Assembly (NCBI GenBank): GCA_008632985.1
Contig: QPGO01000084.1
Location: forward strand, 186,001 to 250,000
From: Psammoneis japonica
Lineage: Eukaryota
Direction of reading: 5' to 3'
Length of the DNA stretch: 64,000 nt
Positions 7,354 through 57,644 of this stretch are shown here, piece by piece. Each line of letters opens with the position of its first letter. The stretch's first letter is position 1. Under the pieces are notes generated by a model. It ran no database searches, was not told the DNA's origin, and saw only the letters and a list, made by a program, of their open reading frames with translations. A program made the translations under genes and the position numbers.

Positions 7354-8361
7354 GGCGCCGTGACTTTTTTTGCGCAGAAATAAAAATATGAATGGCCTTC
7401 GAGCGAGTTGACGACGACTCCCTCGCTCGCGCGCCACGGGAATTGACAACTCATATGGTAATGTACGTGCTGCACCGGTACAGGATTTGTCATACCGGTG
7501 GGCACGGCAAACTTGCGTGCAGGCAGCAACTGTGACGGTGGTCCGTCTCCAAGTGGCCTCTTCTGATTGGCCCGCGCCGCCTGCTTCGTCATACGCAAAG
7601 CGCAAAACAACGCCGCCGTGCTGTGCGTCAGCGAAGTCGTAGCAATCATACCTACTTGTACATACGGAAGAACTACATGACTTGTCACACAGCTAATTTT
7701 TTCGTTTGTGTAGGATCTTCCATGTTTTATACGGCTGAGTAGAAGCGTACGAATTTTTTGTACCAGTGTCTTTTTTTGATGGATTGCTCGGGCCAGCTCC
7801 GCATCCAGGGTGCACAATGGCACAATGCGATGCATGGCAGAGCCACTGAGAAGCCATTCTCCATCAAGAGACATGATAGTGATGGATGCCCCCTATCCAC
7901 ATGGGCTGCGCTTTTGTGGACGTAGCATTGCATCCGTCTTGGTCGCCATCTGTTCCCATGGATTGGTGGACCAAATCTGAGGCACGAGTTCTCTTTGCAC
8001 TGCCAATTGCTCTGGGATTTTCTTTGCATTTCAAAGCCGTGTCATGTTCAATTTATGCAATTTTCCACCTTGAGCAGTGGGAATGCTGCGCATCAGCAAG
8101 AGACCAGCCAAGCTGGGTGTTCGATCTCAATGTGTTGACGATTAACACCTGCATGGATGAACACGCCAACCTGCGGAGTCGGCTTTATCAACGCAACAAA
8201 GACCATCAAGGAACAGTGTTCCTACGTATGCTTAGCGGTGGTATTTCGAACCTTTCGTCATGCCGTGTTGTTACATCATGCAATCCTTGAGTCCGGAATG
8301 GATGTTGGCATCGTGAATGCAAAGGAAATGCTTTATCGATGAATTAGATGACGATATGATG

Positions 8362-35007: not shown

Positions 35008-37110
35008 GTGCTGACACAGAATGCATCGGATGCAGCCAATGCATTGTCTCAATTGTTTGGGGGGGGGGTGGCTCAAGAAAATGCTTCCGTGGAGATGGAG
35101 CCGCAAGCCCACCTTGCTGTCGGTGTCAACCGACAGCCACACATGGCAAGCCCCACCGAGGCTGCAATGTTCAATCCTGGCGCAGCAGCAAATTCGGGCA
35201 CAACCACTGTTCCAACGACCTTGCCAACAGCCAGCAGTCAGACTCTTGCCCTTGCCAAAGCTGTCATTGCCAAGGACAAGAGCGTCCTCAATGTTTCGGG
35301 TGAGGATCGCAAATTGATGGAAGCCACTGCAGGCCAAGAAACGACTCACCAACAAAAATCCTGCAACCTCGAGATGCGCTTTTTCAACACCATTCGAGAG
35401 AAAGGCGGAAACAAGATGCAGTGCCTTCTGGAGCAAGTGCCGACGGAAATGAGCGATGGTCTCCTCGTGGATTTTCGATTCTACAATGAGGTTGGCGGAG
35501 AGAAGAGTGAGCCAAAACGCCTTGTGCTGATGAAATGTTGCGACTTGGCATTCTTCTCTTGGAAAACCCATCCACCGGAGAAGCCCTTGAACCATCCACT
35601 TTTGGGCAACACATGGGGACGCTTTTTGGAAAACATTCTTCCATCGCAAAGGCACAAAGCATGAGCCAGTCGGGTGGGGCCAGTTGGTTGCGCACGTTTG
35701 GGTTCAATGCAGCCGTGCAACCAGCCACACCCTGCAGGAAGAGCTGTTGGTGGCGCACGAGCAGAAGCAACAAAGCACAGAACACAGCGTGGGTCAAAAC
35801 ATTGTAAAATGACGCAACAACAAGCAGCGAGAAGAAACCCAACTTGACCCATGAATGCAGCGCATGCATGTTGTCCAACCACTTCAAGAGTGTCTTGCAT
35901 TCCCAGCTTGCAGATGAGGGGACGGCATTTGCATTTCTTGCCCCATGGTGTTGTTGTGCGTCATCGTGTTGTTTGCGCGAAGAACACGGGATCTGTTTGT
36001 CCGACAGTGACTCTGTTTTGCTGACAGCAGATGTTTTGCTGTGTTCAATCTGCAGACATTTTGAGAAGCGCTTCGGGGAAACTCTGTTGGGACCGTCAAA
36101 TAGAAATTTTTTTCAAACAGATTCCACAGTTCTTTCGGGGTGTTCTGTCGCACTTTTGAATTGGTGTGCACACACATTGGAGGCACAAGCAAATTAAATG
36201 ACATGCAATGGCCTCAGAGACCAAAACAAATTTGTGTTCCATGTGGACCGTGTAGATTGTGTGCCGGCGTAAAATCCACCGCCTGTCAACTCCTCAGTGG
36301 CAATTCTGCATGTGTTCTGCTTGCACCTCACACACGCACACATGCCCACACCAGTCCAATGACCACACACACACGCGCGAGATGACTTCAAGAAAGGCTT
36401 CAACGGGAAAGGAGAGTTTGCCGATGACTGCAAGAAGAGGTGGAAGGAATTGCAAGAAAGTGATCCTGCCTTTGGAGTTGGGAAGAATGCCACAAAATTT
36501 GATTGAGAGGGCAACAAAAAGCTTCGGGCAAAAGTTGCGGAAGGCAGACTCAAGCCCTGCGAGGATCCCTCTCACTGTCAAGAGATGCTTGCGGTTTGGT
36601 TTGCTCGTGGCTTCCTTTTTCGTGGAGTGGCAGAGGTCTCCAAAGCTGTGTGGGACCAGTTCCATCGAGACATTGTTGGCGATGATCAATCCGAGTTCTT
36701 TGGCATGCAGCAACTCAACTGTGAGATTGATGTCGACAAAACACACCAGCCGTCATTGTCAAATCTGAAAGGACACACCGAGAAAGAGGGGCTCATTGAA
36801 TGTGCTGAGAACCCCCATGACCCGGTTTGCATTGTCAAGATTTTTGATCAGTTGCGGAAGTGGTCTCATCCTGATCAAGTTTGCATTTTCTGCGGCCCGT
36901 TGAGCAAGGTGCAGAAGCGAGAATGGGATCTCAAAAACCTGCCCTGCAAGTTCAACCCAAACAAGCCGTTGGGAAAGACTGCCATCGGCACGAGTGTGAA
37001 GCATGTTGCGCAGTTGTGTGAACTCAAGGACTGGAAACAGTGTGCCAACCATGGCAATTGCGCATGCGGTGTTTCGCTCATGATGGTTGCAAAGGTGTCC
37101 AAAAATGTCG
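35008..37110 (+). mobile_element. Crypton-like tyrosine recombinase remnant
   Basis: GFLFRGVAEV (first catalytic Arg), DKTH, DPVCIVK, PLGKTAIG and CANHGNCACGVS (YxNHGxRAYG restored; HxxR). Probably interrupted at ~35660-36380 and truncated at the 3' end. Confidence 0.55.
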
Positions 37111-37206
37111 CGTGGGTCACAGTTGATGCTTTGCAAAAGGAAGGAAAAACACAAAATCGTGTGGAAATGAATTCAATGTCACACGAGAGAGTGATTGGAG
37201 CTAATG

Positions 37207-37317
37207 ACTTTTCGGGAACTGAATTGAAATGCCATCTGATTGACGGCATTGGCCTTCACTGCATGTGAATCAAAATGCCGTCAATCAGATGGCATTTCAA
37301 TTGATTTCCCGAGAAGT
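37207..37317. repeat. Long hairpin
   Basis: Perfect 29-bp arms at 37222-37250 and 37274-37302, imperfect outer arms, and inner ttcac/gtgaa pairing. Confidence 0.9.
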
Positions 37318-37708
37318 TGACATTCGTACACGGACGGATGGACAGACTGATGATAACTATTTTTGGTACTCTCCTACACAATTTCTACGTGATGACTCTC
37401 AGGACCCGAATGATTATTCCTGTTGAAATTCAAATATTCGGTTCCCACCCGTGCACCAAGTTCCCACGTACCGACTTCTACGGTACACAACCGCCAAAAT
37501 CGTCGCGGTCATAATGACTCGATTTTCTATACACAGTCTACACAGCGCTACGAACAACAATGTCAGTCCGACAACTGACAGGTTCCAAATAATGTTATTT
37601 CCTGACTATTTTATATAAAGCATTTCTTTTTGAAAATGTCCATAATATTGTATCGTTTTATTCATTATATATATTATGTTGTAACCATGCCACTACAAGT
37701 TTGTACCA

Positions 37709-38030
37709 TACTACGAATTGCTGAACAATTGCGCGATACACGTGCCCGAAGGGTGATTGTTGCTTCGGGCACGAAATTCGAGCTTCGCGCACGTAGAGAC
37801 CGTAGAAAATATACCAGCATTCGAGAATGTCCGATTTGTGTAGATCACGTAGCACAGTACCACAGAGGTCATTGATGAAATTACTTCAACGACTCATGCG
37901 ACTACAATCAGATTTTCAATACCATATACTATGTAGAATGGACATCTGCGCGAAGGAAGAATGTTGCTTCGGGCAACGATATTCGACCTTCGGGCACGTG
38001 TATCGCGCAATTGTTTTGCAATTTGTAGTA
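37709..38030. repeat. Inverted repeat / MITE-like structure
   Basis: Perfect 29-bp arms at 37724-37752 and 37987-38015 with imperfect extension. Internal direct repeat tgttgcttcgggca. Confidence 0.8.
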
Positions 38031-38536: not shown

Positions 38537-41500
38537 ATGAAGGATCCTACTTCACACGCATCGTCAGGGAGGACAGGAGCACTTTCTGTAGGCGTCTCTA
38601 TGATCGATGATGATATGGCTAGCGAGAACATCGCGGCAATCGCAGCACGTACTAACAAGCTAGAAGCAATAACCACAAGACGAATCGCTGAACCGCTCCA
38701 GTCACAAGAAAATCGGGAAGTGCAAACCACACCCAGCGCTTCTCGCCGCGCAACGAGACCAGCTCCAAGGCCTCGACTGAATTTGTTTGGTAGGCGGGTC
38801 GATTTCCCGACACTCGAGGCGGCAAAGGCTGGATGGTCAAAGGCAATGTCTAGAGTATCGAAAATATCAAACATCTGCTATCGGACACAAGACAGAGTAG
38901 TACAAGAAGGAAGAACTGCTGGTCTTGATGACACTGCTTGTGAAGCAGCGCAAGGGCTTGTACGACTCGCCGCAATCAATACCGAGACCGGTCAGCCACC
39001 AAGAGACAAGTCCCATACCCCAGATGTTCAACGACCGGCTACAGACACTACTATCCTCCAAGCTACAGGCTCTAAGCGAACTCACGAAGCCAGTATCCAT
39101 CAGGGAGTGAAGCTAGCGGATACGAGCAATGCAATCGTCCAAAGCACAGGCTCGGAGCGACGAAATGCAGCCCGCTTCTATCAAGGAGCTCAGCAAGCGA
39201 CTACGAACAGTGCCACCGTCCGAGCCACCGGCTCCGAGCGAAATGAATCACACCCTGCTTTGGAGGCGAATGGCAAATCCACTGCCGATGCCGTCGATGA
39301 AACAGCACTAGTTGATAATCCCAGCGAACACGTGCTGGGCATGACTCCTGCTCGTCATCGCCGCTCCTCTAGAACACGCACGTCAGAGCAAGGTGACTAT
39401 TCATCCCGTGTGGCTTCTGGCTCTTTGCAAGATCCCAACCAAGGAGCAACGTCAGTTGAAGACGATGGAACAGCGCAAAGGCTTGTACGACTCGCCGCAA
39501 TCAATACCGAGACCGGTCAGCCACCAAGAGACAAGTCCCGTACCCCAGATGTTCAACGAGCGGCTACAGACACTTCTATCCTCCAAGCTACAGGCTCTAA
39601 GCGAACTCACGAAGCCAGTATCCATCAGGGAGTGAAGCTAGCGGATACGAGCAATGCAATCGTCCAAAGCACAGGCTCGGAGCGACGAAATGCAGCCCGC
39701 TTCTATCAAGGAGCTCAGCAAGCGACTACGAACAGTGCCACCGTCCGAGCCACCGGCTCCGAGCGAAATGAATCACACCCTGCTTTGGAGGCGAATGGCA
39801 AATCCACTGCCGATGCCGTCGATGAAACAGCACTAGTTGATAATCCCAGCGAACACGTGCTGGGCATGACCCCTGCTCGTCATCGCCGCTCCTCTAGAAC
39901 ACGCACGTCAGAGCAAGGTGACTATTCATCCCGTGTGGCTTCTGGCTCTTTGCAAGATCCCAACCAAGGAGCAACGTCAGTTGAAGACGATGGAACAGCG
40001 CAAAGGCTTGTACGACTCGCCGCAATCAATACCGAGACCGGTCAGCCACCAAGAGACAAGTCCCGTACCCCAGATGTTCAACAAGCGGCTACAGACACTT
40101 CTATCCTCCAAGCTACAGGCTCTAAGCGAACTCACGAAGCCAGTATCCATCAAGGAGTGAAGCTAGCGGATACGAGCAATGCAATCGTCCAAAGCACAGG
40201 CTCGGAGCGACGAAATGCAGCCCGCTTTTATCAAGGAGCTCAGCAAGTGACTACGAACAGTGCCACCGTCCGAGCCACCGGCTCCGAGCGAAATGAATCA
40301 CGCCCTGCTTTGGAGGCGAATGGCAAATCCAATGCCGATGCCGTCGATGAAACATCACTAGTTGATAATCCCAACGAACACGTGCTGGGCATGACTCCTG
40401 CTCGTCATCGCCGCTCCTCTAGAACACGCACGTCAGAGCAAGGTGACCATTCATCCCGTGTGGCTTCTGGCTCTTTGCAAGATCCCAACCAAGGAGCAAC
40501 GTCAGTTGAAGACGATGGAACAACGAAAGTGCCGAATGGAATCACTCTGCAATGCAACGGCAAATGTCAAGTGAGATTTCCGCACGACAGCAGGATCTGC
40601 TATATTGGTACATTTGACTCACTCGCCGTTGTTGCTCAGAACACGGGCCGTACGAAGATGAAAGAGTTTCATGATTCCAAGGGGAATGAAAAGCCGCTAA
40701 CTTCAGCCGATCACAAGCATGGCGTGAAATTTGTCAAGGAAGCTTGCTGTACAGCAGTCCAACAGCACCTACAAGATCACCCAGAAGAACTCGATAAGGT
40801 ATCGAAACGGTCACGGACAAGAGCGCAAGAAGGCAAAGACAGGTACGCTTCGGATTCGAACGAAGATCATATTGGGAAGAAGCGCACTTGGAAAATGGAA
40901 TCAAAAACAGATACAGAGAATCTCAGACGCAGCTCGCGCGCCAAAAAAGCACGAACAGTTTCGGACTTCCCAACCAAGCAGCGCGATACTTCATCACGCA
41001 CCTTATCAATAGGGAAACGTGCGTCCTCGGCTAGTTCGGAGGGTCTTCCTTCAGACGTATCACATTTGCGTGCTGGAGCAGAGCAATTGAGCACTCACTA
41101 TCTAGGTGGCTTCACCATTGGCCTTTCTGCGCCTTCAAAAGGGGAGCCGTACGCTGAAGAAAGCGCATGGCGTTTGCATAATCCAACGGTGCCTCCTGAC
41201 CAGAGCAAATTCGGCAAGTTGCCGCTGCAATCGCTCCCACCACCTCCAAGCCTACCACAGTTTCCACACACTGGCCTTTGTGAATGGACGTGGGATGAAG
41301 AATCTCGAGTTCTCCTTGGCAATTTCAGAAAGAATAAAAGCAGTAAGGTGGAAGTCAGTAAGGAGGATGAAGAGTTCCTGTTGCGCATGATGGAACGCAA
41401 CGATATTTCAGTTATTAGCGAAGGACTGGCCGATGATCTCGATGGTGCGATCTGGACCCCGCAGTATATCGCAGACGTAGCGGGGGACAAGTATTACCAC

Positions 41501-43466: not shown

Positions 43467-43701
43467 ACTCTCCGGGTCCGATGGACGAGCCCGAAGACAG
43501 TGCTGACCCCTCCAGTGTCCTCGAAATGGAGGGCATGTACGCTGGTACCGGACTGGAAAAGACACAAAGCTGAGGCGCACTCCAAGAGACACGGCGCATG
43601 TCAGTGACGAGAGAAAACTACCCATACGATGTTGCAGGTGTCCCGCCTTTCTATGGTGCAGCAATCTTCTCCCAAATAAGTAGGAGTAGTCTCTATTTTA
43701 T

Positions 43702-43989
43702 GCAATGTTTTATTCTATTTTGCCGCATGGAGTTGACGAGTTTTTCCTCCAATCTTGTGATTGCTATATTGCTAAAATAACGCTGCTCCAAAAAGCAATG
43801 TCCTACAGCTGTCTTTTGTGAGACGCCTAACAGCAGTGCGGTAGCCCAACCCGTGGGAGTCTTGTGCAGGAGCAATGAGGCTTCGACACACTAAAGAATG
43901 TTCTCCATAAGGCGGTCCACTGCTCGAGTCTGTAGTAGAGTGCAAAAGTGCAGCAGTTAGAATGGCAACATTGTGCACAAATCAAAACA
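43702..43989 (+). repeat. 288-bp dispersed duplication, copy 1
   Basis: Matches 57357-57644 with 2 differences by eye. Confidence 0.95.
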
Positions 43990-44300: not shown

Positions 44301-45997
44301 CAGATCCAACTAGGTCTAACTTCGTGTCGACATATCTAATCGAAGTCAGTACGAGGTGGTGAGTTAAAATGGCGCTCCTCACGTTCCGTACAGAAGCTCC
44401 AAGCTTACCTACCTTCTCCAGGACTGTCTGAGTGGTGACGGAAACGCGTTAATGTTTGTAAATTTGAGTCCAACAACAGCGAGTGGCAATGAAAGTCTCT
44501 GTTTCTTGCGATTCATTGAGCTTGGAAAGGCGATCAAGCACATTGAATACTCCAAGTTGAGAAAGAATTAGTTCCGTTTGGAGAGAGGTAGGGGGGTTAT
44601 AAGGGAAACCGTTATTCTAAGAGCACGTACCGGTAATATGCAACACAGTTTTTTGTATCGTTTTCTTTGAAGTTCCGGCCTATCTCGTTTTTGATTTGTT
44701 TCTCTACAGAGAATGCGCCAGAACTTACGATCGAAGGTGATGATTCATAATGGAAATTGGATACCGTGGAATGCTATAGTACACTCGAGCCCAATCAGTG
44801 ACGCGACCGATGACGACCGAGCTACCACGCCACAGGACGCTAATGAGCCACAACTCGACAACCAACGCATGTGGAGAGGGGAGGTGCTTTGATGCAGTGG
44901 CAATGAAGGCATCTACGCACCCAGCGCCACCGTATGTGCTTGACTTGTGAAGAACGCCACTCTGTAGATTCGAGCCGACGTCCACTCTGATGGTTCTTCT
45001 TCCGCATCTCTTCTCGTCGTTGCTTTCGCTACTGTAGACAAAAAATACTGACGTCTTGATTCAGTACATGCTCACAAGGTTGCTGAGTAAAGTGCCTTTC
45101 GGGGGAAAGGCTGGGACTTGTGTCAGCTGAAAACAACGCGTCGTTGAATGCCCGCAAATGCTTGACAAGTTGAAGCTCCCTGTCGTCAATTGCATAGCTA
45201 GTGCGGCAGTACTGTCTGATGGTGCAGCACTCTCAGATGATGAATGGATACTCTCACCTGCATTGGTTCCCCAGATTCGAGCCCCCCCCCCCAATAAGCA
45301 TACGAATACAAATGACACCATTCGAGTCGCATTGTCCAGAAGCGTCAAATTTCCCATCCACGGTTCCAATAAGCCAATATCAACACGTACATCCGTTCCC
45401 AAATACTCATGACTTTGTATTCCGGTTCGTGATATCGTTTTGCATTAATAATAATGACATGGATTCTGAGCGCATAAAGGAATCGAGTACAAGAGACGGA
45501 AACTCAGCATCATTCAAAGGTCTTCCCAGCTTGCCACCCTTCTCAATCACAAACAAGACATCCTTGCGCAATTAGACCAACAGTTGCCTCAAAAGCAATT
45601 GACTATGTTTCATAGCCAGCCTTGAACTCTGCTAACTCATTAGCAGCAGCAATGGGTGCAGGGACAATGCGTAGCCGCGTTCTTGGCCAAGAGCTTGAAG
45701 CTGTCCGGCTCACACGTCCAATCATTTGACTTCAGACAGGATCAGCAAATCATCACGAGCGCCCAATCTGCCTCGTCGACGCCTGTCGTAGTACTTTGCA
45801 ATTGGCAATGATATATTTCACACCTGGCTTCTTGTAGCACATGTTCCCGTTGTAATGCAGACATTTCGGGACTGCCACATCAAGAAAAGTGGAAGCGTCG
45901 TCCTTCAACACCGTTCCAGTCGAGTCCGCGAACCACGTACTGAAGAATTGGTCGTGTGGAATGACACGGCACCGCTTACATTTTATTTAGGGAAAGG

Positions 45998-46231
45998 AGT
46001 CACGACTCAACGTCATTCTGGTCGCATCTCACGACTACAACCCAGACTCAGATTTTCTCTTCGAAATAATTAGCTCATCACAAAATCGATTCAAACAGAA
46101 GCAACGACATTCGTCATAATTTCTAGACAACGACTTTCAACAAGCGTCTGTTTACCTCTGTCGCTATTCATATTGCTACCAACCTCCGAGGTCTCATCCA
46201 TCCTACTCAGCTGCAGGACTGCATCTCGACT
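45998..46231 (+). repeat. 5' LTR
   Basis: AGTC...GACT; aligns without gaps to 53006-53239. Confidence 0.95.
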
Positions 46232-46393
46232 GGTCACAGAGACCAATTTGCACGTTGACGAGAGCTCCTGACCGAGTCATCGTCACGGACGCTTTCGGTT
46301 TTTGATTTTGAAGCAAACCCGGGAAATAGCTGAGTCTCTCTCGCTTCTCTCGTCTTCACTCTAACAAGAACCTCCCATGCTGCACTCTCTGTC

Positions 46394-49300
46394 ATGGCTG
46401 CCATCGATCCAGCTGTTCTGGCGAAGGCGTTTGCCGATGCAATGGCAGCCAACGCCGCGGCGACCGCTCCTCCAGCTCCAACCAAGCCGTCACGTGGTGG
46501 AATTCACCCAACCCACGGGGTTTACATTGGTGGTTCCAAACTCAACAACAACTGCGAACAATCCAACGACAGAACCTGCCGACTCGCCTCTCAGCGCCGT
46601 CATCCCAAGGCTCTCGACTCGACAGAACGATCTCTCCGCGATCAACAAGCTTCCGCAATGACTTCCAAGTTCAACAGTCGACTTGAGATTTCGGACGGTC
46701 CCATCAACGAGCTTGACAAGGACCATTTCGTCAAGACCGTTCGAGATCTGGCAGAAGCCCACGGTCAGCAGACGTTCTGCCATGCAAAGGACAGCGACGA
46801 CAAGGTTCAACACATCTTCGACCATCTTCACGAGTTTGCTGTGACCGATCTCGTGAACGAGTGCACGGTTGGGAAAGCAGCTGCCGATGATGCCAAGCAC
46901 CACGAGATCGAGCTCGACGACATCGGGCTCTCTCAACTTCTCGTTCACTCAAGAATCACTGATGCTTTTCGCGAGAAAATCGAGACCAAGTTCAACCATC
47001 TTTCGGACTGCCAAGACTACCCTGGATCTGTTCCATTCATGATGGCTCTCGACACTTGCAATGCCAGCGCTCTAACGGACATTGAGACGGCCAAGAAGCA
47101 GCTAGAAGACCTCAGTTTGGCCAACCATCCCGGCGAGGATTGCACGGACTTTGCTGCCGAAGCTCTTCGCATCGCGAAAATTGTGCAGACCGACTGCGCG
47201 CTTCCGGCAAACACAAGCTCCAAGCTGCTCCACAAGATCTCCTCCACGTCCTCTGAGTGCTTCAATCGCCGAGTCTACAACAAGCTCGACGACGTCAAGG
47301 CCATGGAACGCAAGCACCGCCTCAAGAATCCTGCTGACATCGTGTCCGACAGCGATTGCAAAATGCTCGGACCGGTCGGCATCATTGCGTGGATTCAAGA
47401 GCAACACAACGAACTCGTGAAGGATGGGGAATGGCCTGCATTAGCAGCCAAGCTACCCGAGAGTAATCTTTCGACTACGGATGACCCTGGGAAGACGAAG
47501 CACTGTCATGGTTGCGGTCTCGAGGGGTGCACCAAGAAGACGTGTCCGAAGTGCAACGCCAAACCGCCGCGCGACGACACTCCTCCCAATCCGCCGCCTG
47601 CAGACGACCCTTCCAAGAAGAAGAGGCGACCCATCGCTGTCTGGCGCACTAAATTTGACGGAGAAACGAAGAAGGATAAGAGTGGCAAGGAATGGAAGTG
47701 GTGTGCCACGTGCAAGGCGAAGGGTGCCGACAAACCTGGAATCCACCAGAAGCACTCTACCGCGGAACATGCCGACGACCGCAGGCAACCTCCCAAGGAG
47801 ACCCCAGCCGGGAATTTGTCTTCCGTTGCTGACCCGGATAGTGGCGTGCCCATGGGTCCGCCCGCTCAGACTGCCAAGGCACCAGAGGGAGACGAATCCG
47901 ACCCCAACGAGCCAGTTTTCACAGGAATGTGGTGCGCGGCTACGGATCCCGTCACCGACCCGGATTTCTGTTCCGCCCCAGTCACTGCTGCAATTGTTGT
48001 TACTCCGGCTTCTTCGGCCGAGAAGGAGAGCGATGCAGTCGTTAGTGCTGAGGTGGTTTGCATCGAAACGAGCCCACCTGTGCTCACCTCAGTCGTGGAT
48101 CCAGTCGTGTCTCCCACAGTGGTTGAGACTGTCACTCCCGAAGACGCCGATGACTTCTACGAACACTCCGACGCTTTCTCTACCTTTGAAAACGAACCAC
48201 CGGCCATTGAGTTGTTTCCGGCCTCGAAGCTGTGCTCCATCAAGCATCCAGATGAGTTCTTTGACGCTCCCGCACATTTGACGGATGTGCTGTCAGACGA
48301 CACCAAGTTAGATCTCATCCTTGAACACGACGTACACTTTGAAGACGCATGCTGCGACTTGCCTCCGTGTGTTGCGTGTCGTGGCTTCGATTTCTACGAT
48401 CCAGAGGTCCTGGATGCGGATGATTGTCACGAGGACGTCGAAGACGAGCCCACTTCGCGTCGCTCACTCTTGGGTCGAGTCAAGCTGTTCATGTTCTGGC
48501 TCGCCGCCATGTTTTGGGAAACGGCACTGCATCTTTGCTTTGCTCCGATCCCATGCATCCCTCGAGCTCTACGCCGCCAGCGCAAACTCCCAACTTTGCA
48601 CGGGTTTCCAGCCTCCTGGATGGTCCCATCCGTTGCAGTGATGGTGTGGTCAGCAGTTCACGCCGGTCAACAGCCCGAGCATCCATTCTCGAACGCACCA
48701 AGTCGTTTTTCGACCGCTGGCTCTCAAGTCCACCACATTGTGGAAGAGCTAGATGACCGGATAGTGTTAGATTCGGGGTCACTGTTCGAACATCACAGGA
48801 TCAAAGGCACGCAAGTGCTCGCCGAGTTTGTCGCGCGCCATCCGTCACACGCACTGAGCACTCGTCTCAAGGCCTGCTGGGAGAGCCCAGAAGCAGCTGA
48901 ACGGTCTGATGCGACAGACGAATCAGCCTTCTTTGATGCCTGTGAGGAACTGGAACCTCTCGACGACCAGAAGCATTTCTTTGACGCTCTTGAGGACTTC
49001 AGCCCGGATTTCTTCCGGTTTGACGAGCTCTGTCTGCCGCATCACATCGTGGACACCACCCATTTTCAAGATCCTGTGGAACCATTGGAGGAAGCAGGTG
49101 TTAGACCAGTCGTCCACAACACCTCCACCATCCAACTGCTCACCGGACAATCACAAGCCGACCTCCTTGCATCCGATCCGCAGGCTCTCATCGGTCTGTC
49201 AGACGAGGCTCTCACGGTCGTCATGGACACTGGTGCAACATTAGCCATTGCCCCCGATGAAGATGATTTTACGGGGCCCATGACTGTTCCCAAGAAACCC

Positions 49301-52300
49301 TTGCAGATCAATGGGATTGCCAACGGTCTCACCATCCAGGGCACCGGTCCGGTTGCGTGGGTGTTCACAACGCCGAGTGGGGCTGCCATCCAACTGAACA
49401 CCATGGCATGCTGCGTCCCTGGAGCCCGTCAGCGCCTGCCATCGCCTCAACGCCTCTTCAACGAAGAGAAGGGGGTGCGTGGGAAGCATGAGGGCAATGA
49501 AACCACTTTCCGTTTACATGTTGACGGGACAGGCAAGTTGGTCGTGCCACATCATCCATCAAGCCACTTGCCTGTTGCATCGATGACCAAGGGCGTGTCT
49601 GCCGCTCCTCAAGTGAGCCTTCAGATCCTTAACGAGGAGAATCAAAACCTCACGGCAGGCCAAAAGCTTCTTCTCGAAATGCACACCCGTTTTGGCCATT
49701 TGAACTTTGGTCGCGTCCAAGCACTTCTCCGCGCAGCTCCGTTCCTTTTGAACCGTTTCAAGTCCGCAGCGAAGTGTGACCACCCAAGATGCGAGGCATG
49801 CAAACATGCTAAAGGTCACAGACGCTCTCTTGGATCTGCTCACAAGTCGACAGTCCCTGAACGCGACGGGGCCCTTCGAGCTGACCATCTTCGACCGGGT
49901 CAGGCTGTCAGCGTTGATCATTTTGAGTCGCACCTTTTAGGCCACACCTTCGACTCTTGTGGCAAAGCCACGTCCAAGCAATTCAAGGGCGGTTGCATCT
50001 TTGTCGACCACGCCTCTGGCTGTGTCCAGGTCGAGCACCAACTGGGTTTCTCCGCTGTTGAGACGATGCGCGCGAAGCAAGCGTTTGGGAAACATGCTTT
50101 GGACCACGGGGTCATCGTCCAAGAATTTCTTGCCGATGGTGGCGCTTTCAAGGCCAACGCTTTTGTACAACACACGCGAGATCATGAAAAATGTCTCCGT
50201 TTTTGTGGAACCAACGCCCATCATCAGAACAGCGTCGCAGAGCGGGGCATCCGCAGCATCTCCAACATGGCGAGAGCGATGTTGCTTCATGCATCAATGC
50301 ACTGGAAGGGGGGAATTGACAGCTCCCCATGGCCCATGGCAGTTTCCCATGCCACGCATGTCTACAATGTCACCCCAAATTCCAAAGGATGTTGCCCAGC
50401 GGACATTTTCACCGGTTCGACAGTGCCAAGACATCGGTTGCGCGACATTCACACATGGGGATGTCCAGCGCACGCACTTGACCCGACCCTCGCTTCCGGG
50501 AAGAAGCTCCCGCGTTGGGAGCCTCGCACTCGTCGCGCTTTGTTCATGGGACTCAGTGCCATCCATTCCAGTGAGGTTCCTTTGGTCCTCAATCTTCAAA
50601 CTGGAAGTGTTGCACCTCAGTGTCATGTGGTCTTTGACGATCTCTTCACTGCCGTGCCATCAATCGAGAGGGAGACGGATCCACCTGATCACTGGGAACA
50701 CTTGTGCCTCAACCAATCGACATGCATCCCTCTGGAGAAGGATCAGGCAGTTCATTCACACGATGAGTGGCTCACCCCTCCAGAGCGTCAACGCAAAGAA
50801 CGAGAACTGGCCAGAGCAACACGCATTCGCGGGCATTTTGAGCCCACTCCATCGATTGCTGTGCCGGATTCACCCACTTCTCGCGACGACGTTGCCGATC
50901 GAGTCGCACCTGCGACTCAGCAGCCAACGCCACCAGTCCCACCTGCGACTCAAGCTCCTACAGACTCTACGGACTCTGCGCCAATTCAGCCACCTGAACC
51001 TCAAGACAGTGATGGACTTCCGCCACCCGAAGCGCCGACGGAACCAACAGCTCCTCCCCCAGTCGAGACACCTCCTGTGACGAATCCAGAGGGAGCGCCA
51101 GGGCTGCGACGGTCTTCACGGTCAACCAAGGGACAGTTCAACTCTGCCAAGTTTGTAGATGAGGTCCACTTCAGCTCCGTCGAGGAAATGCCGCTGCCGA
51201 TCGGACACGAGGCTCAACTGGCGCATCTGGCGACTCTCGAGACGGATTTGGACAGTGGTGCCATCAATGTCGGCGATCCACGAGCCCACGCAGCTAGCAA
51301 GAAAACCAAGGACCCTGACATGCCTTCGTTGCACAATGCTCTGAAAGGTCCGGACGCCGACGAATGGATCAAGGCGATGAAAATTGAAGTCAACGCACTC
51401 ATGCATCGTCGAGCCTGGAAAGCAGTCGAGCGTCAGCCGCACATGAATGCACTTCCAGGCACATGGGCACTAAAGCTCAAGAGACTCCCAGATGGAACCC
51501 CTCTCAAGCACAAGGCCCGATGCTGCGTCCGCGGTGATTTGCAGAAAGAAGGAGTCGACCACTTCGAAACCTGCGCGCCGGTTGTGCAACGGTCCAGCAT
51601 CCGCCTCATGCTCACTGCGGTGTTAAAGGAGGGATGGACCACACGACAGGTGGACTGCACCACAGCCTTTTGCCAAGCTGATGTCGCCGAGGAAGTTCAC
51701 ACAACACCGCCGAAGGGATTTGCGCCAAGGTCGGGACTCAATGTGGTTCTCAAACTTTTGAAAGGACCACACGGCCTAAAACAGTCTCCCAAGGGCTTCT
51801 ACGAGAAGTTACGAGCTGGTTTAACCGAGCGCGGATGGGTGCCTTCAGCCACAGATCCCTGTTTGTATTTCAAAGAGGGAATGATGTGTGTGGTGCACGT
51901 CGACGACACCGTTTTTGCTGGAGCTTCAGCTGAAGCTCTAGAAGCCGAAACTCGCAAGTTAGGAGTCTCCGACGACGAACATCGCCACGCATTTGAACTT
52001 AGAGACGAAGGAGAAGTCGGCAACTTTCTCGGCATCAAGATCGAAAAGCTCTCCGAGGGTTGATTTCTGCTCACTCAACCCGGTCTAATTGACAAGGTCC
52101 TACGCACCGCACAGATGCAGGATTGCAATGGAGCATCTGCTCCAGCTCTGCCTGCGGCTGTTGGTGCCGACACGGACGGCCCACCTTTTGATGAACCCTG
52201 CGATTGTCGCTCAGTTGTTGGAATGTTGATGTGCTTGGCAGCGAACAGCCGGCCAGACATTGCACATGCCACACATCAAGCAGCTCGATTCTCGTGTGCA

Positions 52301-52984
52301 CCCCGAGCGTCCCACGCTGCTGCAGTGAAGCGGATGCTCCGATGCCTCAAAGCAACTGCTGCTGAAGGTCTCATTCTCAAGCCTGCGCAAGATCATCGAG
52401 TTGATTGTTGCGTCGATTCTGACTTCGCGGGGTCATTTGGTGTGGAAGATGGTCAAGACCCAGTTTCTGTCAAGTCCAGGACTGGATGCCTTGTCTGCTG
52501 CGCCGGCTGCCCGCTTGTCTGGGTGTCCAAGCTGCAGACTCTTGTGGCATTGTCGACTGTGGAAGCGGAATGTGTCGCACTTTCTCAAGCCATGCGCGAT
52601 CTCATCCCCATTCGTGAAGTTCTCAAGGAGCTCAACCACCACGCACTCGGAAAGTCTGACCGCCAAAACCCAATCACGACTCACTCCAAGGCTTTTGAGC
52701 TCGCAACCCAAGGCACCGATGACTCGCCTGTAGAGCAGAATGTCCTGCCTGCGTCCGTTGTGTGCGAAGATGACTCCGCGTGCCTCAAGTTTGCACGCAT
52801 GCCCAAGTTGTCTCCGCGAACCAAACACATCGGCATCCCGCACCACTGGTTTAGGACTAAAGTCGAGCAATTGGAGATCGACATCCAACCCATCAGCACT
52901 CTAGAGCAACTGGCCGATCAGTTCACGAAGGGACTGCGGACCGATGCGTTCCGCACGGCTGGAAAGGCTCTCATGGGCTGGCAA
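46394..52984 (+). pseudogene. Copia gag-pol polyprotein, hypermutated, one nonsense codon
   Basis: Zn knuckles, VMDTGA protease, HTRFGH..CEAC, integrase D-D-E region, RT and RNase H all lie in a single frame. TGA at 52061-63. The probable natural stop after LMGW now reads CAA (52982-84). Confidence 0.92.
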
Positions 52985-53005
52985 GCTCTCTCGGTTGAGA
53001 GGGAG

Positions 53006-53239
53006 AGTCACGACTCAACGTCATTCTGGTCGCATCTCACGACTGCAACCCAGACTCAGATTTTCTCTTCGAAATGATTGGCTCATCACAAAATCGATTC
53101 AAACAGAAGCAACGACATTCGTCACAATTTCTGGACAACGACTTTCAACAAGCATCTGTTTGCCTCTGTCGCCATTCACATTGCTGCCAACCTCCGAGGT
53201 CTTGTCCATCCTGCTCAGCTGTGGGACTGCATCTCGACT
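53006..53239 (+). repeat. 3' LTR
   Basis: Follows the PPT; contains no TA dinucleotide. Confidence 0.95.
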
Positions 53240-53649
53240 AAAGGCGCTTGGATTGCAAAAGGTGGCAAGGCATCCTAGATCCACAACACACACAGTCCCC
53301 GCTTCTCCCAGCGCCCGTCTCTCGATGCACGGTCCAAACCATGTTTCATCGACAACGCTCCAAACGCCCGCGAGACAACGAAAGACTTGTCAAGCCTTGG
53401 ATCAAAAGACGGTGATTTGTTTCGGAGACTGACTGTGTCGACGAGGAGTTGCTGTTGCTGCCAGAAGAGTCGGCAGTCGACTGAAAGAAACGAATGACAG
53501 AGATCTTACCACACAACATGCATTGGTTAGGGAAACAACATCCAAAAAATAGACTAATCCCCATCTCGCTTTAAATCATCAGACCTTGTGACAATCCACT
53601 TGAGCAAAAAACACCACATCAATTCGAGGAAGGCTTCTTTTTCTTTTTT

Positions 53650-53780
53650 CACTTCTTCTTGGAACACTGTTGGATCCAATGACCAGACATTCCGCACAAA
53701 TCACAGACATGGCCGTCCGGTGGAGTAGATACCTTGCGTTTGCTGTTGCTTGCGGTCGCTTCTGCTTCGCTCATGCTCTC
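53650..53780 (-). pseudogene. CCHC zinc-knuckle gene fragment
   Basis: PPDGHVCDLCGMSGHWIQQC. Confidence 0.55.
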
Positions 53781-54764
53781 ATGGTGTCGCCATCGAGTCT
53801 CGAGTCTCGAGTTGCGGTGATGAGCACGTGTGCTGTAGAGTTGCGAGGTCTGAGGTCTTCTGAAAAAACCGTTGGACCTCGCGAAAGAACCGTTGGACCT
53901 CGCTGAAAAGGCATGCAGACCTCGCGCGGATCGCTCATTCGTTCGTATCCATACCCTGGCGCCCAGCGCACACCAGACACCATGACGAGCACCATCGGAC
54001 GCAACGCGTCCTCTCAGGATGGCACAGCATCGGTCTCCACTACTTGTCCATTTCAAGGAGATATGACTCACAATGTGATGAATCATCAGTGGTTAAAAAT
54101 GGGCTGGTGGAGATCGTAAGCTAAGAAAAAACAAGACCGAAACTGCGAGGTATCTTTTTTGTCGTGATTTGTAATCCTGCGTCAACATTGAACATTGGTC
54201 GTACAAGTATTGGTGCCGTATGATCATCTTTGTCAATACTAGTTCGAAAGATGATGGATATCTTGTTGGTTAATGCCGTGGAGGTGGTCCGGAGCGTGAA
54301 GGCAAAAAAATCAGTAAGAGGCGCTACCATCGCTTATCATCGCATCATCTGGAGTAGAGAGCCCTATCTTACCGTGAACATTGAACACTCGAGTTCCTAC
54401 TACTACTTTCTACTACTACTGTGTTTATTCACGGCGGCGCAAGTGGGGACTTGTTCGCAAGGAGTGTTGACACGGTGCTTTCCAACAAGTCGCTGATAGA
54501 CGTCCTTGGAAGATTTTTCCGTGGACACAGCAGGTAGAGGTTTGCGCGGTTGCAAAACACGTGGAAGACTTCTTGATCGGAATATTGGTTCTACACTGAT
54601 CAGAGCGCCCGAGACTACATCGTGAAGCATCCGAAGCGATTTCTTGATGCTTTCGATGCTTTGGTTCCAGGAGCATACAAGGTATGCACGCTCGTTTGTA
54701 CCGCTTCTTCCCCCAAAAATCCCTCGTCGAACATGCTGATGCACGTACGGTTCTCTCAATTATG

Positions 54765-54985: not shown

Positions 54986-55205
54986 AATTATGCAGAACTC
55001 ATTTTTGTTTCGTGATTCTGGAGAGTCGTCGGTTTGTTGGGCTAATTTACTCTACTTTCAGTGAGTACACTTTGGAACTTGTCCCACGAGGCATTGAATT
55101 ATGCAGAACTCATTTTTGCTTTGTGATTCCGGAGAGTCGTCGGTTATTTGGCCTAATTTACTCTACTTTCAGTAAGTACATTTTGGAACTTGTCCCACGA
55201 GGCAT
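54986..55205 (+). repeat. Tandem duplication, 2 x 111 bp, overlapping the 3' end of the helicase-like ORF
   Basis: Units start at 54986 and 55097. Confidence 0.9.
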
Positions 55206-57356
55206 CTAACCGGTACATTGGCATTCCTCTTTTGTCAGTGTTCCACGACATCTCAATCTTCTGTCTTTGCGCTCCTGTGTTCTTTGTGGAGGCATCTAGT
55301 CGGCAGCGGTATCGAAGAACTTTAGAAACAATCAGCTGAAGCAGTAAAAGTTCAGCATCTTGTGTTCCGGATGACCTGGTGTTGTGCGCTCGTGGCCATA
55401 TTGTCTCGGCATTCTCTTTCAGGAGAGTAAGTATTTCATTCGAAGAAGCTCGCTTGCCATTAAAGGCACCCGCTAGTGTCATTGTAAGGGCCGTCTTACT
55501 AAACCATATTTCATTCTCCCCTGCATGTTTATCCTTGCAGCATACCCAGCATTTGTCACAGTTGGTAGCTCTATCTTGAAAGTCGTGGTCGGGAGTGACT
55601 GGACGTGGACGGCTCGTGTGGTCTTCATCTGGACGTGACGGCACCGGTGACATGATCCCTGCGTAAGGAGCTTGTTGCGCATTATCGGGTGAGCGGAATC
55701 GTCTTTGAAACTGATCATTGATACAGACGGTTGAGAATAACAAGATTTCCATCAACTCGAAGAAGCGCCGTCGCGCTGTTCTTCGCTGCTCACGATCTTC
55801 CTCCCTTTCAATTTGTTTCAGAACCTTTTCAAGCAGAGACACGCTTAACAACACGTGGCATTCTGGTCCCCGTTCACCAAAATCAACCGAACCAAGCCTT
55901 CCGGTTCTTCCAAGCATTTGAACGAAGTCGTAAATGTTGGACGGCGGTCCATCCATGATGACATCGCCACAATGCTTCGAGTCGATCCCAGCGTTACCCG
56001 CTTTTGTGCACACTTTCATCTCTAGAAAGATCTCACGCATGTAATCTTTCAATCCTTCCGCCTTAGTTTCCGTATGGTGAGACAGCTCAGTCCAAACCCA
56101 CAAGGACTTCTTCTTTGCGTGTGGATTCCATGTGCTCACAAGTCTACTATGCTCCGTTTCCAATTCGGTTCCCACGCGATCAATCAGCGACCGCCACCAG
56201 TCAACGGTCAGACTTTGCACTTCGGTCATTGCCCTGTTGCGGCTTCCTCTTGCGATTCGTTCTTGGACGAGGTTTTGTCTGAGAAACAAGCACTGGTTCA
56301 ATGCCTTTACGCGATCGTAGTAATCACTACTGGACAAATCCATTCCCGGCATCTTGGGAGTTTCTTGATTACTATCACGGGTAAGAGGTGGGTGCGTCAT
56401 GAGCGTTGGCGATGTGTGCAGCTCCCATCCGTCGACTGGGAGCGTAAGTGATATGGTCTCACCTGCTTTTACCTGTATCTTTTCACTTGAATTTGAAAGA
56501 GGCACTTCGCAATCTACCTGAGCCTTCAATGCGTATGCAATTTGATAGCAGTCATCAGTCACCGGAGAGCTTGTAACGACGTCGAAACGGTATGTGTCTT
56601 GATTCGCTCCGAGACTAAGGTACGCCATAGTGTCACCTGCTTTCCATTGGGGCAATCTCCATCTCACGTGTGCTGTCATTGTAGCATGAACAGGAATCGA
56701 GGACCGCCCGCCTCGCTGGAATAGCAGAGTTTGGAAGAATTGAAAATTGTCAAAGATCAAGCTATTGTGAGCATCCTTGCTAAGGGCATCACGCTGCAAG
56801 CTGCGGAGCTTCTCATAATTCTCTTTCATCCATTTCCGGGCTTTTGACTTGTCAACCATCAGTCCAATGTACCGCCCCATTGCGTCTGCTCCATTTCCAC
56901 GAGCCATGGCTCCGAGTCGCATTACAAGGGCAAGGTGTCGAAGATTGTGAGGGTTCCTGGTGCGCAATATTAACAAGCAGGTGAGGAGCCGGCGAGTGTA
57001 CTTCATCTCCTTATATTTGGCTCGATACATGGCGTTCGGTGCGTTCTCAATGCTGGTGAATGCCCACAGCAAAGGGCAATTCTCCTTAAGCTCTTGGACC
57101 ATTTCGTTCACGGAAATTAGCGGTTCTTCCATGTCATCCCAGCCGTTCTTGAACACATTCGTGATTCTTTTTTCTATCTCGTTGTCAAGCTTCTTACACC
57201 ATGCGATGCCTTTGCTTTTGATTTCGTCTTCGACGAACATAGGCACGTCATCGGGTTGGATCGTGGGGCTTTCGCCGTCCAAAGCCAATTTGGGGATGTC
57301 GGCGGGCGAAAAGCGTTGCTTTATGTCTTGGGCGGCCCAAGCAAGCTTTGCCATAC
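55153..57356 (-). mobile_element. Academ-like ORF: DUF6589-like transposase part fused to a RecQ helicase C-terminal half; 5' truncated
   Basis: LIFDNFQ...QRGGRSS...HAT and HTETKAEG, followed by TKAGNAGID, PSNIYDFVQMLGRTGR and CDKCWVC. No Walker A or DExH seen. Confidence 0.55.
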
Positions 57357-57644
57357 GCAATGTTTTATTCTATTTTGCCGCATGGAGTTGACAAGTTTTT
57401 CCTCCAATCTTGTGATTGCTATATTGCTAAAATAACGCTGCTCCAAAAAGCAATGTCCTACAGCTGTCTTTTGTGAGACGCCTAACAGCAGTGCGGTAGC
57501 CCAACCCGTGGGAGTCTTGTGCAGGAGCAATGAGGCTTCGACACACTAAAGAATGTTCTCCATAAGGCGGTCCACTGCTCGAGTCTGTAATAGAGTGCAA
57601 AAGTGCAGCAGTTAGAATGGCAACATTGTGCACAAATCAAAACA
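57357..57644 (+). repeat. 288-bp dispersed duplication, copy 2
   Basis: Matches 43702-43989. Confidence 0.95.

What the first reader, a model, noticed from the sequence alone, without database searches (positions are those of the whole stretch)
46394..52984. Polarity proof in protein space: Tyr->Cys/His sweep through gag-pol, including catalytic YVDD
Seen: about 8 Tyr in 1889 aa and none in the last 320 aa. Conserved copia motifs read KHKARCCVRG, VDHFETCAP, QVDC, EEVH, KGPHGLKQ, VHVDD, DCRSVVGMLMCL, PDIAHA, LRCLK, DCCVDSD, RTGC, EAECVALS and IPHHWFR. These correspond to TAY->TGY/CAY plus CTA->CCA (L->P), and the likely TAA stop after LMGW is now CAA. Established: these positions are Tyr in copia RT/RNase H. 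Inference: TA is ancestral and both strands are hit. The process inactivates elements by missense changes and removes rather than creates stop codons, so dead elements look intact to ORF-based annotation.
Basis: partly seen in the sequence, partly recalled or inferred. Interest (0 to 1): 0.88.

Follow-up and report, generated by a model that had tools for sequence, protein, structure and literature searches.

The report
Jumping gene killed by TA-erasing mutations
A recently inserted diatom-type jumping gene has had almost every TA step in its DNA turned into CA or TG after it landed, which wiped out its tyrosines without creating stop codons and points to an undescribed DNA-mutating defence resembling the fungal RIP system run backwards.

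Summary
Window 45998-53239 is a complete Ty1/copia retrotransposon of the diatom (CoDi-like) type, with 234-bp LTRs, a 5-bp target duplication (AAAGG) and one in-frame TGA. TA is at 0.17 of expectation, against about 0.6 in ordinary parts of the window; CG is normal.

Tyr is 8 of 2197 residues, against 1.8-4.6% in 240 homologs. Across 585 columns conserved in 39 homologs, Tyr is kept in 1 of 25 (11 Cys, 9 His). Every other residue type is kept in 56-96%.

New here: the change happened in the chromosome after insertion.
- The 5' LTR keeps 10 TA and the 3' LTR keeps none.
- 14 of the 15 differing LTR columns lie at TA versus TG/CA steps.
- TA loss runs about 0.5-0.8 kb into the downstream flank. 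There, 8 of 12 visible differences from insertion-free contigs are window CA/TG against TA.

The purged zone resembles a transcription unit. Two other blocks of the window are purged in the same way.

My ten literature searches found no report of this. The enzyme is unknown. The evidence rests on one copy, and an assembly artefact is not fully excluded.

The parts
45993..45997 (+). Target-site duplication AAAGG, left copy
   Evidence: The insertion-free joint 45992->53240 has 5 letters that fit either side.
45998..46231 (+). 5' LTR (234 bp, termini AGTC...GACT). It keeps 10 TA. Only the last ~40 bp shows hits: CA at 46195-96 and at 46214-15, where the 3' LTR has TG.
46394..52060 (+). gag-pol reading frame, first part (1889 codons from the Met). 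It holds a Cys/His knuckle-like motif at 47504-47545, the protease DTG at 49220-49243, an integrase HHCC-type zinc-finger motif at 49682-49813, and RVT_2 at 51413-52048 with HVDD in place of YVDD at 51896-51907.
   Evidence: The knuckle and zinc-finger labels are my reading of the motifs, not a family match.
52061..52063 (+). The single in-frame stop, TGA, at a column where homologs have T, E or R
52064..52981 (+). gag-pol frame, second part (end of RT plus RNase H, up to LMGW). It has 0 Tyr.
52982..52984 (+). CAA at the place where 32 of 39 homologs end. It is consistent with a former TAA. The frame then runs on to a TGA at 53075-53077, which is TAA in the 5' LTR.
52997..53005 (+). Polypurine tract (GAGAGGGAG) abutting the 3' LTR
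   Evidence: sequence only; function inferred
53006..53239 (+). 3' LTR, with 0 TA. 219 of 234 positions are identical to the 5' LTR. The 15 differing columns are 10 TA(5') vs TG/CA(3'), two CA(5') vs TG(3') pairs (4 columns), and one CG(5') vs CA(3').
53240..53244 (+). Target-site duplication AAAGG, right copy
53245..53950 (+). Downstream flank that is partly TA-purged: 12 TA in 53201-54000, against 7-15 per 200 bp beyond 54000. Of 12 visible differences from insertion-free contigs, 8 are window CA/TG vs TA.

Best explanation
What is shown
- A CoDi-like Ty1/copia retrotransposon inserted at AAAGG. It was then inactivated where it sits by a mutational process specific to one dinucleotide.
- TpA steps were changed to CpA or TpG. 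These are T:A->C:G transitions, one hit per site, on either strand.
- The change is close to saturation across a domain that starts about 35-40 bp before the end of the 5' LTR. It covers the whole interior and the whole 3' LTR, then fades over about 0.5-0.8 kb of downstream flank.
- The consequences follow directly: Tyr codons (TAY) become Cys or His, TAA/TAG disappear in all frames, no new stops arise, and G+C rises from about 48% to 55%.
- Surviving TA steps are mostly of the Y-TA-R type. Steps with A before or T after (ATA/TAT) are almost gone.

What is inferred
- The domain matches the element's transcription unit: the U3 of the 5' LTR is spared, and the same sequence in the 3' LTR is fully hit. 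So targeting is probably co-transcriptional or guided by the nascent RNA, not by DNA homology.
- The chemistry is probably enzymatic deamination of adenine in a 5'-TA context, or a mutagenic modification of the thymine.
- The process serves as a defence against transposons. It works like fungal RIP with the base change reversed.
For: Polarity
- Tyr is kept in 1 of 25 conserved Tyr columns, with 20 of the 24 losses going to Cys or His. Other residues are kept in 491 of 560 columns.
- All 13 motifs carry Tyr in the homolog majority.
- None of 240 homologs is Tyr-poor.

Specificity
- 34 of 68 single-step replacements are TA-type.
- TA O/E is 0.17 while CG O/E is 0.93.
- The TGA count is unchanged.

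After integration
- The LTRs must have been identical when the element inserted (established retrotransposon biology). They now carry 10 and 0 TA, and 14 of the 15 differing columns lie at TA/TG/CA steps.
- The target-site duplication is intact.
- Public contigs join 45992 to 53240 without the element.
- In the right flank, 8 of 12 visible differences are window CA/TG against TA.
- One contig matches the left flank with 1 difference in 701 bp. A contig on the right flank has 17 in 453 bp (table 8).

One hit per site
- No conserved Tyr codon reads CGY (0 of 25), and no LTR site reads CG opposite TA (0 of 12).

Family-wide
- The family is high-copy in run X1, with summed depth of 3200-7900 against 210-430 in the flanks.
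- Variant places are 471 transitions of 593, in four near-equal classes: C>T 128, A>G 126, G>A 111, T>C 106. This fits copies that took CA or TG at the same sites.

Generality
- Two further blocks (1-4750 and about 30300-37250) have almost no TA.
- They show the same survivor bias. Counts for RTAY / mixed / YTAR are 3/27/26 in the copia (expected 17.7/29.6/8.7, P = 7e-11), 1/12/14 in block 2 (P = 3e-7) and 0/2/5 in block 1.
Against: - One copy in one window. No genome was held, and no same-family copy could be fetched, so nothing genome-wide was tested.
- Only 40 of 598 variant places from the reads were visible. Of the 28 inside the element, only 6 are window CA/TG against TA. A further 4 are window CA/TG against CG, 2 are window CG against TG, and 16 are other changes.
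- At 8 of the 12 visible flank sites, no contig carrying the window's letter was seen in X1. The window's state there is therefore not independently confirmed.
- The insertion-free contigs could be paralogues and not alleles.
- X2, from the same sample, has the flanks but no depth on the element. I have no explanation for this.
- 58 of 93 mismatches at conserved columns are not TA-type.
- None of 240 public homologs shows the pattern.
- The sparing of the 5' LTR is a single instance. Gene conversion from an intact copy would also produce it.
- Flanking bases do not significantly predict the choice of CA or TG (P = 0.25).
- Clustering of same-strand events is weak (one-sided P = 0.04-0.05).
- No enzyme, RNA or chromatin data are available.
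Confidence: 0.72

Rival explanations
1. Base-calling or polishing artefact. The DNA of silenced transposons carries modified bases at TA (and at CG in the older blocks). A long-read base caller misread them, so the true sequence still has TA and the element is intact.
For: The pattern is limited to domains, nearly complete and confined to palindromic dinucleotides, as a modification map would be. At 8 of 12 visible flank sites, and at the best-supported sites inside the element, no X1 contig shows the window's letter. Only 0.49 of the element's sampled words are in X1. That systematic nanopore errors occur at methylated motifs is recalled, not from a call.
Against: Strand-mixed miscalls at a symmetric site should also give CG and leave TA. 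Here 0 of 25 conserved Tyr codons read CGY and 0 of 12 LTR sites read CG. At 4 flank sites (53291, 53293, 53651, 53711) X1 contigs do carry the window's letter beside the other one. X1 contigs themselves show both CA and TG states at the same places, for example 49596-97 and 47913-14, with matched transition classes of 128/126 and 111/106. The sequencing technology of X1 is not on record.
Confidence: 0.08
2. RNA-level A-to-I hyperediting of the retrotransposon transcript (ADAR- or ADAT-like), fixed by reverse transcription before integration.
For: The change is A->G with a 5' T, the neighbour such deaminases prefer (recalled). Events show weak same-strand clustering (12 runs against 17.5 expected).
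Against: Editing before reverse transcription gives identical LTRs, but here they carry 10 and 0 TA. It cannot change flanking host DNA. It gives A->G on the sense strand only, whereas 14 of 34 events are T->C on the sense strand.
Confidence: 0.06
3. Ordinary decay or GC-biased gene conversion among many copies, with no dedicated process.
For: G+C is 55% in the element against 48% around it. The family is high-copy. By my reading of the list, 9 AT->GC changes lie outside TA against 4 GC->AT changes outside CpG.
Against: All 14 AT<->GC differing columns between the LTRs lie at TA-type steps, and none lies at AA, AT, AC and the like. 34 TA-context changes stand against 9 AT->GC changes in all other contexts. 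AT observed/expected is unchanged, at 0.90 against 0.91. The element is young: its target-site duplication is intact, an insertion-free site exists, and the LTRs differ at only one non-TA column.
Confidence: 0.06
4. Reverse polarity. This would be classical RIP-like C->T at CpA/TpG in the other copies and in the 5' LTR, with this copy being the unmutated, natively TA-poor form. A variant of the same idea is selection against TA in the element's RNA.
For: The LTR pair and the flank comparison alone do not fix the direction.
Against: 39 homologs from different diatoms have Tyr at 24 conserved columns where this copy does not, including the catalytic YVDD (39 of 39). The family stop is read through. 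The non-coding flank is affected too.
Confidence: 0.02

Closest known systems
Repeat-induced point mutation (RIP) of ascomycete fungi
   Same: It works alike. Mobile or repeated DNA is hit in the chromosome by transitions tied to one dinucleotide, on both strands, close to saturation, with some spread into neighbouring DNA, and the reading frames are destroyed. General RIP properties are recalled; the abstracts of PMC7882544 and PMC3318451 were seen in search listings.
   Different: The chemistry is the mirror image. RIP turns CpA/TpG into TpA, makes DNA AT-rich and creates stops. Here TpA becomes CpA/TpG, DNA becomes GC-richer and stops vanish. RIP acts on both members of a duplication, whereas here one LTR is spared and its twin is fully hit. 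A 291-bp repeat at 99% identity nearby keeps its TA. RIP is described as fungus-specific; this element is of the diatom type.
A-to-I hyperediting by ADAR/ADAT-type deaminases and its fossils in viruses and retroelements
   Same: The change is A->G with a T/U before the edited base. It is dense and clustered, and it inactivates selfish elements. The context preference is recalled. Abstracts on ADAR and retroelements were seen in listings.
   Different: Those act on RNA, on one strand and before integration. Here both strands, one LTR only and the host flank are changed. The listed abstracts describe ADARs as metazoan enzymes. TA followed by G is the most resistant context here, whereas ADAR is recalled to favour a 3' G.
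CpG methylation-driven decay of transposons (CG->TG/CA)
   Same: A palindromic pyrimidine-purine step is converted to CA/TG within silenced elements. The two older blocks of this window show it together with TA loss.
   Different: The target is CG. In the copia element CG is intact (O/E 0.93) while TA is nearly gone, so the TA process is separate and much faster.
APOBEC3-type G->A hypermutation of retroviruses and retrotransposons
   Same: A host mutator with a dinucleotide context that kills retroelements (recalled).
   Different: It deaminates cytosine on cDNA before integration, has strand-specific G->A polarity and creates stops. None of that is seen here.
CoDi (Copia-like elements of diatoms; Maumus et al. 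2009, PMC2806351)
   Same: The element's own family type: Ty1/copia domain order, best homologs in diatoms (Fragilaria crotonensis, Cyclotella, MMETSP), and the ...LMGW C-terminus.
   Different: The nearest homolog is only 58% identical. Term searches inside PMC2806351 and PMC8147415 found no mention of transitions as mutations, of dinucleotide bias or of RIP. I did not place the element in a numbered CoDi group.

Membership tests
Ty1/copia LTR retrotransposon (diatom CoDi-like) | Direct LTRs flanked by a 5-bp target-site duplication | tested here: met
   LTRs at 45998-46231 and 53006-53239, with 219 of 234 positions identical. AAAGG lies on both sides.
Ty1/copia LTR retrotransposon (diatom CoDi-like) | Copia-type reverse transcriptase (Pfam RVT_2), with integrase upstream of RT | tested here: met
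   RVT_2 scores E = 3e-29 at residues 1694-1905. The weak gag_pre-integrs (1116-1160) and SH3_retrovirus (1369-1436) matches lie upstream but are below Pfam's cut-offs. The protease DTG is at residue 966.
Ty1/copia LTR retrotransposon (diatom CoDi-like) | Closest relatives are diatom copia polyproteins | tested here: met
   178 hits, the best at 58% identity. Named sources are Fragilaria crotonensis, Cyclotella meneghiniana and MMETSP.
Ty1/copia LTR retrotransposon (diatom CoDi-like) | Functional catalytic motifs (YxDD) and an open gag-pol frame | tested here: not met
   HVDD replaces YVDD, 24 of 25 conserved Tyr are lost, and there is one in-frame TGA. This is a dead copy.
RIP (fungal repeat-induced point mutation) | C->T at CpA, giving an excess of TpA and loss of CpA/TpG | tested here: not met
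   The opposite is seen: TA O/E is 0.17 and CA and TG are 1.29. Polarity is fixed by Tyr->Cys/His.
RIP (fungal repeat-induced point mutation) | Both copies of a duplicated sequence are mutated | tested here: not met
   The 5' LTR keeps 10 TA and the 3' LTR keeps 0.
RIP (fungal repeat-induced point mutation) | Dependence on RID/DIM-2-type cytosine methyltransferases and a premeiotic stage | not testable with these tools
   No genome is held.
RNA hyperediting fossil (ADAR/ADAT type) | A->G on the transcribed strand only, fixed before integration, so identical LTRs and an untouched flank | tested here: not met
   14 of 34 events are T->C on the sense strand. The LTRs differ, and the flank is changed.
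CpG methylation decay | Depletion of CG with a gain of TG/CA | tested here: not met
   CG O/E is 0.93 in the element. The feature is met in the blocks at 1-4750 and 32500-34500.

The most novel reading that the evidence does not exclude
This diatom lineage has a dedicated DNA mutator of a kind not described before. It would be an enzyme that converts T:A to C:G specifically at TpA (an adenine deaminase acting on DNA, or a thymine modifier) and is brought to transposons through their own transcription. It erases TA across the transcribed domain within a short evolutionary time. This would be a transposon defence that is the chemical inverse of RIP. It leaves long open frames in dead elements, so ORF-based annotation would count them as intact.
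Probability: 0.4. Interest if true: 0.92.

Novelty: new variant of a known kind. Interest (0 to 1): 0.82.

Why it matters
The known transposon-directed mutators (RIP, APOBEC, CpG decay) all deaminate cytosine, and known A->G mutators act on RNA. A chromosomal process specific to TpA that turns A:T into G:C would be a new mutational chemistry in genome defence, and a natural counterpart of engineered adenine base editors.

It would also explain GC-rich, TA-free islands in such genomes. It would distort transposon dating from LTR divergence: here 14 of the 15 differing LTR columns come from this process or from the ambiguous CA/TG pairs. It would also mislead annotation. Dead elements keep long frames (1909 codons here), and spurious ORFs appear in all six frames.

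The sparing of the 5' U3 against complete conversion of the identical 3' U3 gives a direct, testable handle on how the target is chosen.

Tried and rejected
- Whole genome: none is held for this window, so no genome-wide census and no search for candidate enzymes was possible.
- Earlier scan notes: nothing was held for this genome, for this sequence or for the pattern.
- Same-family copies inside the window: none by blastn or tblastn.
- Same-family copies in JGI metagenomes: only 6 loci at 31-36% identity.
- Same-family protein fragments: a second protein search with the RNase H part gave at most 63% identity.
- Sequencing runs: no RNA holder was listed. X3 held nothing, and X2 had no cover on the element interior.
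- Local CA-versus-TG skew in 200-bp bins is not over-dispersed in the element (P = 0.12).
- Flanking bases do not significantly predict whether a site became CA or TG.
- The two other purged blocks gave no Pfam family and no Atlas hit, so their nature is unknown.
- Flank ORFs gave only Helicase_C, LRR and zinc-knuckle matches.
- Three long ORFs in ordinary parts of the window gave no Pfam family. I did not pursue a host-gene identification of the organism.
- Literature: ten searches and term look-ups inside PMC9258296, PMC2806351 and PMC8147415 found no description of TpA->CpA/TpG hypermutation of transposons. Subscription journals are not covered. No supplements were read.
- Considered and rejected: RNA editing that restores Tyr in transcripts. 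The non-coding LTR and the flank are changed in the same way.
Full report
WHAT IS THERE

The region holds one complete LTR retrotransposon at 45998-53239 on the + strand.
- The two LTRs are 234 bp each (45998-46231 and 53006-53239), with termini AGTC...GACT.
- They are flanked by the 5-bp duplication AAAGG (45993-45997 and 53240-53244).
- A polypurine tract abuts the 3' LTR.
- One frame runs from 46334 to 53077. It has a Met at 46394, a single internal TGA at 52061-52063, and a final TGA at 53075-53077 inside the 3' LTR.
- Pfam finds RVT_2 (E = 3e-29) downstream of weak integrase-associated matches. That is the copia domain order.
- A protease DTG and an HHCC-type motif lie upstream.
- The best of 178 homologs are 52-58% identical over the full integrase-RT query; P0003 reaches 65% over half of it. 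Where a source names them, they come from diatoms: Fragilaria crotonensis, Cyclotella meneghiniana and an MMETSP transcript.
- I therefore call it a diatom CoDi-like Ty1/copia element. The organism itself is not named to me.

CHECK OF THE OBSERVATION

Composition
- Tyr is 8 of 2197 residues, with none in the last 307.
- The 39 full-length homologs have a median of 3.17% Tyr. The lowest value among all 240 homologs is 1.84%.
- The missing ~62 Tyr are balanced by about 28 extra Cys and 32 extra His.

Conserved columns
- I aligned the frame (X at the stop) with the 39 homologs of at least 1900 residues among the 72 best hits.
- 585 columns are at least 80% conserved. Tyr survives in 1 of 25 of them; the others now read 11 Cys, 9 His, 2 Phe, 1 Thr and 1 Trp.
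- Every other residue type survives in 56-96% of its columns, 491 of 560 overall (Fisher P = 9e-20).

Motifs and the stop
YVDD is present in 39 of 39 homologs.
- 32 of the 39 homologs end at ...(M/L)GW. Here CAA follows the W.

Replacements at conserved columns (93 in all)
- 35 need only TA->CA or TA->TG (34 in one step).
- 3 need only CG->TG/CA.
- 13 are other single transitions.
- 18 are single transversions.
- 24 need several steps.
The non-TA changes are what I would expect for a family whose nearest known relative is 58% identical.

DNA level
- TA is at 0.17 of expectation in the element. It is about 0.5-0.75 in ordinary kilobases of the window.
- CG is unchanged at 0.93. AT is unchanged at 0.90, against 0.91 in the rest of the window.

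POLARITY AND TIMING

The protein outgroups fix the direction: TA is the older state.

The LTRs add timing. The two LTRs of a retrotransposon are copies of one template when it inserts (established biology).
- They now differ in 15 of 234 columns.
- Ten are TA in the 5' LTR against TG (7) or CA (3) in the 3' LTR.
- Four columns form two CA-versus-TG pairs.
- One is CG against CA.
- The 5' LTR has 10 TA and the 3' LTR has none.
So the change took place in the chromosome after insertion.

Public reads give the same answer for the host flank.
- Contigs of runs X1 and X2 join 45992 directly to 53240, with 5 ambiguous letters. That is an insertion-free version of the site.
- Of the 12 visible differences between the window and such contigs in 53291-53711, 8 are window CA/TG against TA. 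Two are window CA/TG against CG, and 2 are transversions.
- One X1 contig matches the left flank (45118-45818) with 1 difference in 701 bp. An X2 contig on the right flank (53240-53692) has 17 in 453 bp (table 8).
- TA density in the window returns to normal only near 54000.

SHAPE OF THE DOMAIN

TA is normal up to 46178-46205. The first hits are the CA at 46195-96 and at 46214-15, inside the last 40 bp of the 5' LTR. From there to 53239 only 56 TA remain in 7008 bp, or 8.0 per kb against 40.3 in background.

The upstream ~200 bp of the LTR sequence is therefore untouched at the 5' end of the element and fully converted at its 3' end. A mechanism that recognises sequence or homology would treat the two alike.

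The domain looks like the element's transcript: it starts late in the 5' LTR, runs through the 3' LTR and reads on into the flank. A TA-rich stretch (CTATTCATATT, 46164-46174) lies about 20-30 bp upstream of the first hits, where a TATA box would sit. This is my reading and was not tested.

Block 2 of the window (about 30300-37250) has a sharp edge on the right and a gradual one on the left. Its longest ORF is on the minus strand at the left end. That would be the same arrangement if the block is transcribed leftward, but this is only suggestive.

SIGNATURE

- Both strands are hit: 20 TA->TG and 14 TA->CA among the protein-inferred events.
- Each site is hit once. No conserved Tyr codon reads CGY, and no LTR site reads CG. 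This is expected if the first hit destroys the target.
- Survivors are not random. Across all three purged blocks, sites with a purine before and a pyrimidine after the TA are nearly absent, above all ATA/TAT. Y-TA-R sites are enriched: copia 3/27/26 against 17.7/29.6/8.7 expected from background, block 2 1/12/14, block 1 0/2/5.
- The ancestral composition of the elements is unknown, so the exact ranking is provisional. Sites such as CTAC were converted in the LTR and at Tyr codons.
- Flanks do not significantly predict the choice of CA or TG.
- Runs of same-direction events are only weakly in excess: 12 runs against 17.5 expected, one-sided P = 0.04.
- TAA and TAG are depleted three- to four-fold in all six frames, while TGA is unchanged. 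This explains the many overlapping ORFs seen.

SPEED

The element is young on every measure that TA is not part of.
- Its target-site duplication is intact.
- An insertion-free version of the site exists.
- Only one LTR column differs outside the TA-type steps.
- CG is not depleted.
Yet about four-fifths of its TA steps are gone, and 24 of 25 conserved Tyr. The older blocks have lost both TA and CG. The TA process is therefore much faster than CpG decay, which argues for an active process and against slow drift.

FAMILY CONTEXT

In run X1 the element's bins sum to a depth of 3200-7900, against 210-430 in the flanks. 3108 contig pieces were laid, at likeness from under 90% to over 99%.

Variant places are 471 transitions of 593. 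The classes are paired: C>T 128 with A>G 126, and G>A 111 with T>C 106. This is what is expected if other copies took the other outcome (TG instead of CA, or the reverse) at the same ancestral TA sites. The visible examples 47913-14 and 49596-97 show this. I could see only 40 of the 598 places, so this reading is not verified site by site.

MECHANISM

Shown:
- T:A->C:G at TpA, after integration;
- limited to a domain;
- on both strands;
- one hit per site;
- with a flank-dependent efficiency.

Inferred:
- targeting through transcription of the element;
- enzymatic adenine deamination in a 5'-TA context, or a mutagenic thymine modification;
- a defensive role.

Nothing here identifies the enzyme.

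CAVEATS

An artefact from modified bases in a long-read assembly would give a similar map.
- Against it: the absence of CG outcomes, the presence of the window's letters beside the alternative at four flank sites in X1, and CA and TG states within X1 itself.
- Still open: the technology of X1 is not on record, and at 8 flank sites the window's state was not seen.

Other caveats:
- The insertion-free contigs might be paralogues.
- X2 has the flanks but no trace of the element, which I cannot explain.
- The sparing of the 5' LTR is one case, and gene conversion could mimic it.
- None of 240 public homologs is Tyr-poor. The process is therefore not general among sampled diatom copia ORFs, or such copies escape the gene calls and word-based searches.

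COMPARISON AND NOVELTY

The process works like RIP but fails RIP's defining features: the base change is reversed and only one LTR is hit. It also fails the features of RNA hyperediting fossils, CpG decay and APOBEC hypermutation (see the membership table).

Ten full-text searches and three in-paper look-ups found no description of it. The library lacks most subscription journals.

I rate it a new variant of a known kind: transposon-directed point hypermutation. There is a real chance that the chemistry is categorically new.

Noticed in passing
window 1-4750: This block has almost no TA (7 in 4.7 kb) and almost no CG (O/E 0.02-0.42). CA+TG reaches 1.6-2.0 times expectation. Its right edge is sharp, near 4750, and the block runs off the window's left end. 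Its long ORFs match no Pfam family. It looks like an older relic that went through both TA loss and CpG loss.
   Followed up: partly
window 30300-37250: A second TA-purged block of about 7 kb, with 27 TA left. CG loss is patchy and almost complete in 32500-33500. The left edge is gradual and the right edge is sharp, at about 37250. A very TA-rich, 36% G+C stretch follows directly at 37501-37750. The 607-codon ORF at 30266-32089 (-) has no Pfam or Atlas match.
   Followed up: partly
window 43699-43989 and 57354-57644: A 291-bp direct repeat, 99% identical (2 differences), lies 13.7 kb apart and brackets the copia element. Both copies keep a normal number of TA, so a short duplication alone does not draw the process.
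   Followed up: partly
window 38941-40290: Three tandem copies of a 525-bp unit, matched over 300 nt at 97-98% identity, in a region of normal TA content.
   Followed up: no
window 53649-54092 (-) and 55153-57369 (-): The downstream flank holds a minus-strand ORF ending in a CCHC zinc knuckle (zf-CCHC_2, E = 9e-6, just under Pfam's cut-off). It also holds a 738-codon ORF with only the end of a Helicase_C domain. The flank may itself be old mobile DNA, which bears on whether the insertion-free contigs are alleles or paralogues.
   Followed up: partly
protein P0002 against window 52982-53020: One homolog, 57% identical, also reads through the usual stop after LMGW. It continues with SLPTVERESWN, close to this copy's QALSVERESHD. 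The polypurine-tract region that follows the stop is therefore conserved between distant family members.
   Followed up: no
runs X1 and X2 laid on window 45000-54500: X2 comes from the same coded sample as X1. It covers both flanks and the insertion-free joint at depth 70-180 but has zero depth over the element interior, although the family is high-copy in X1.
   Followed up: no
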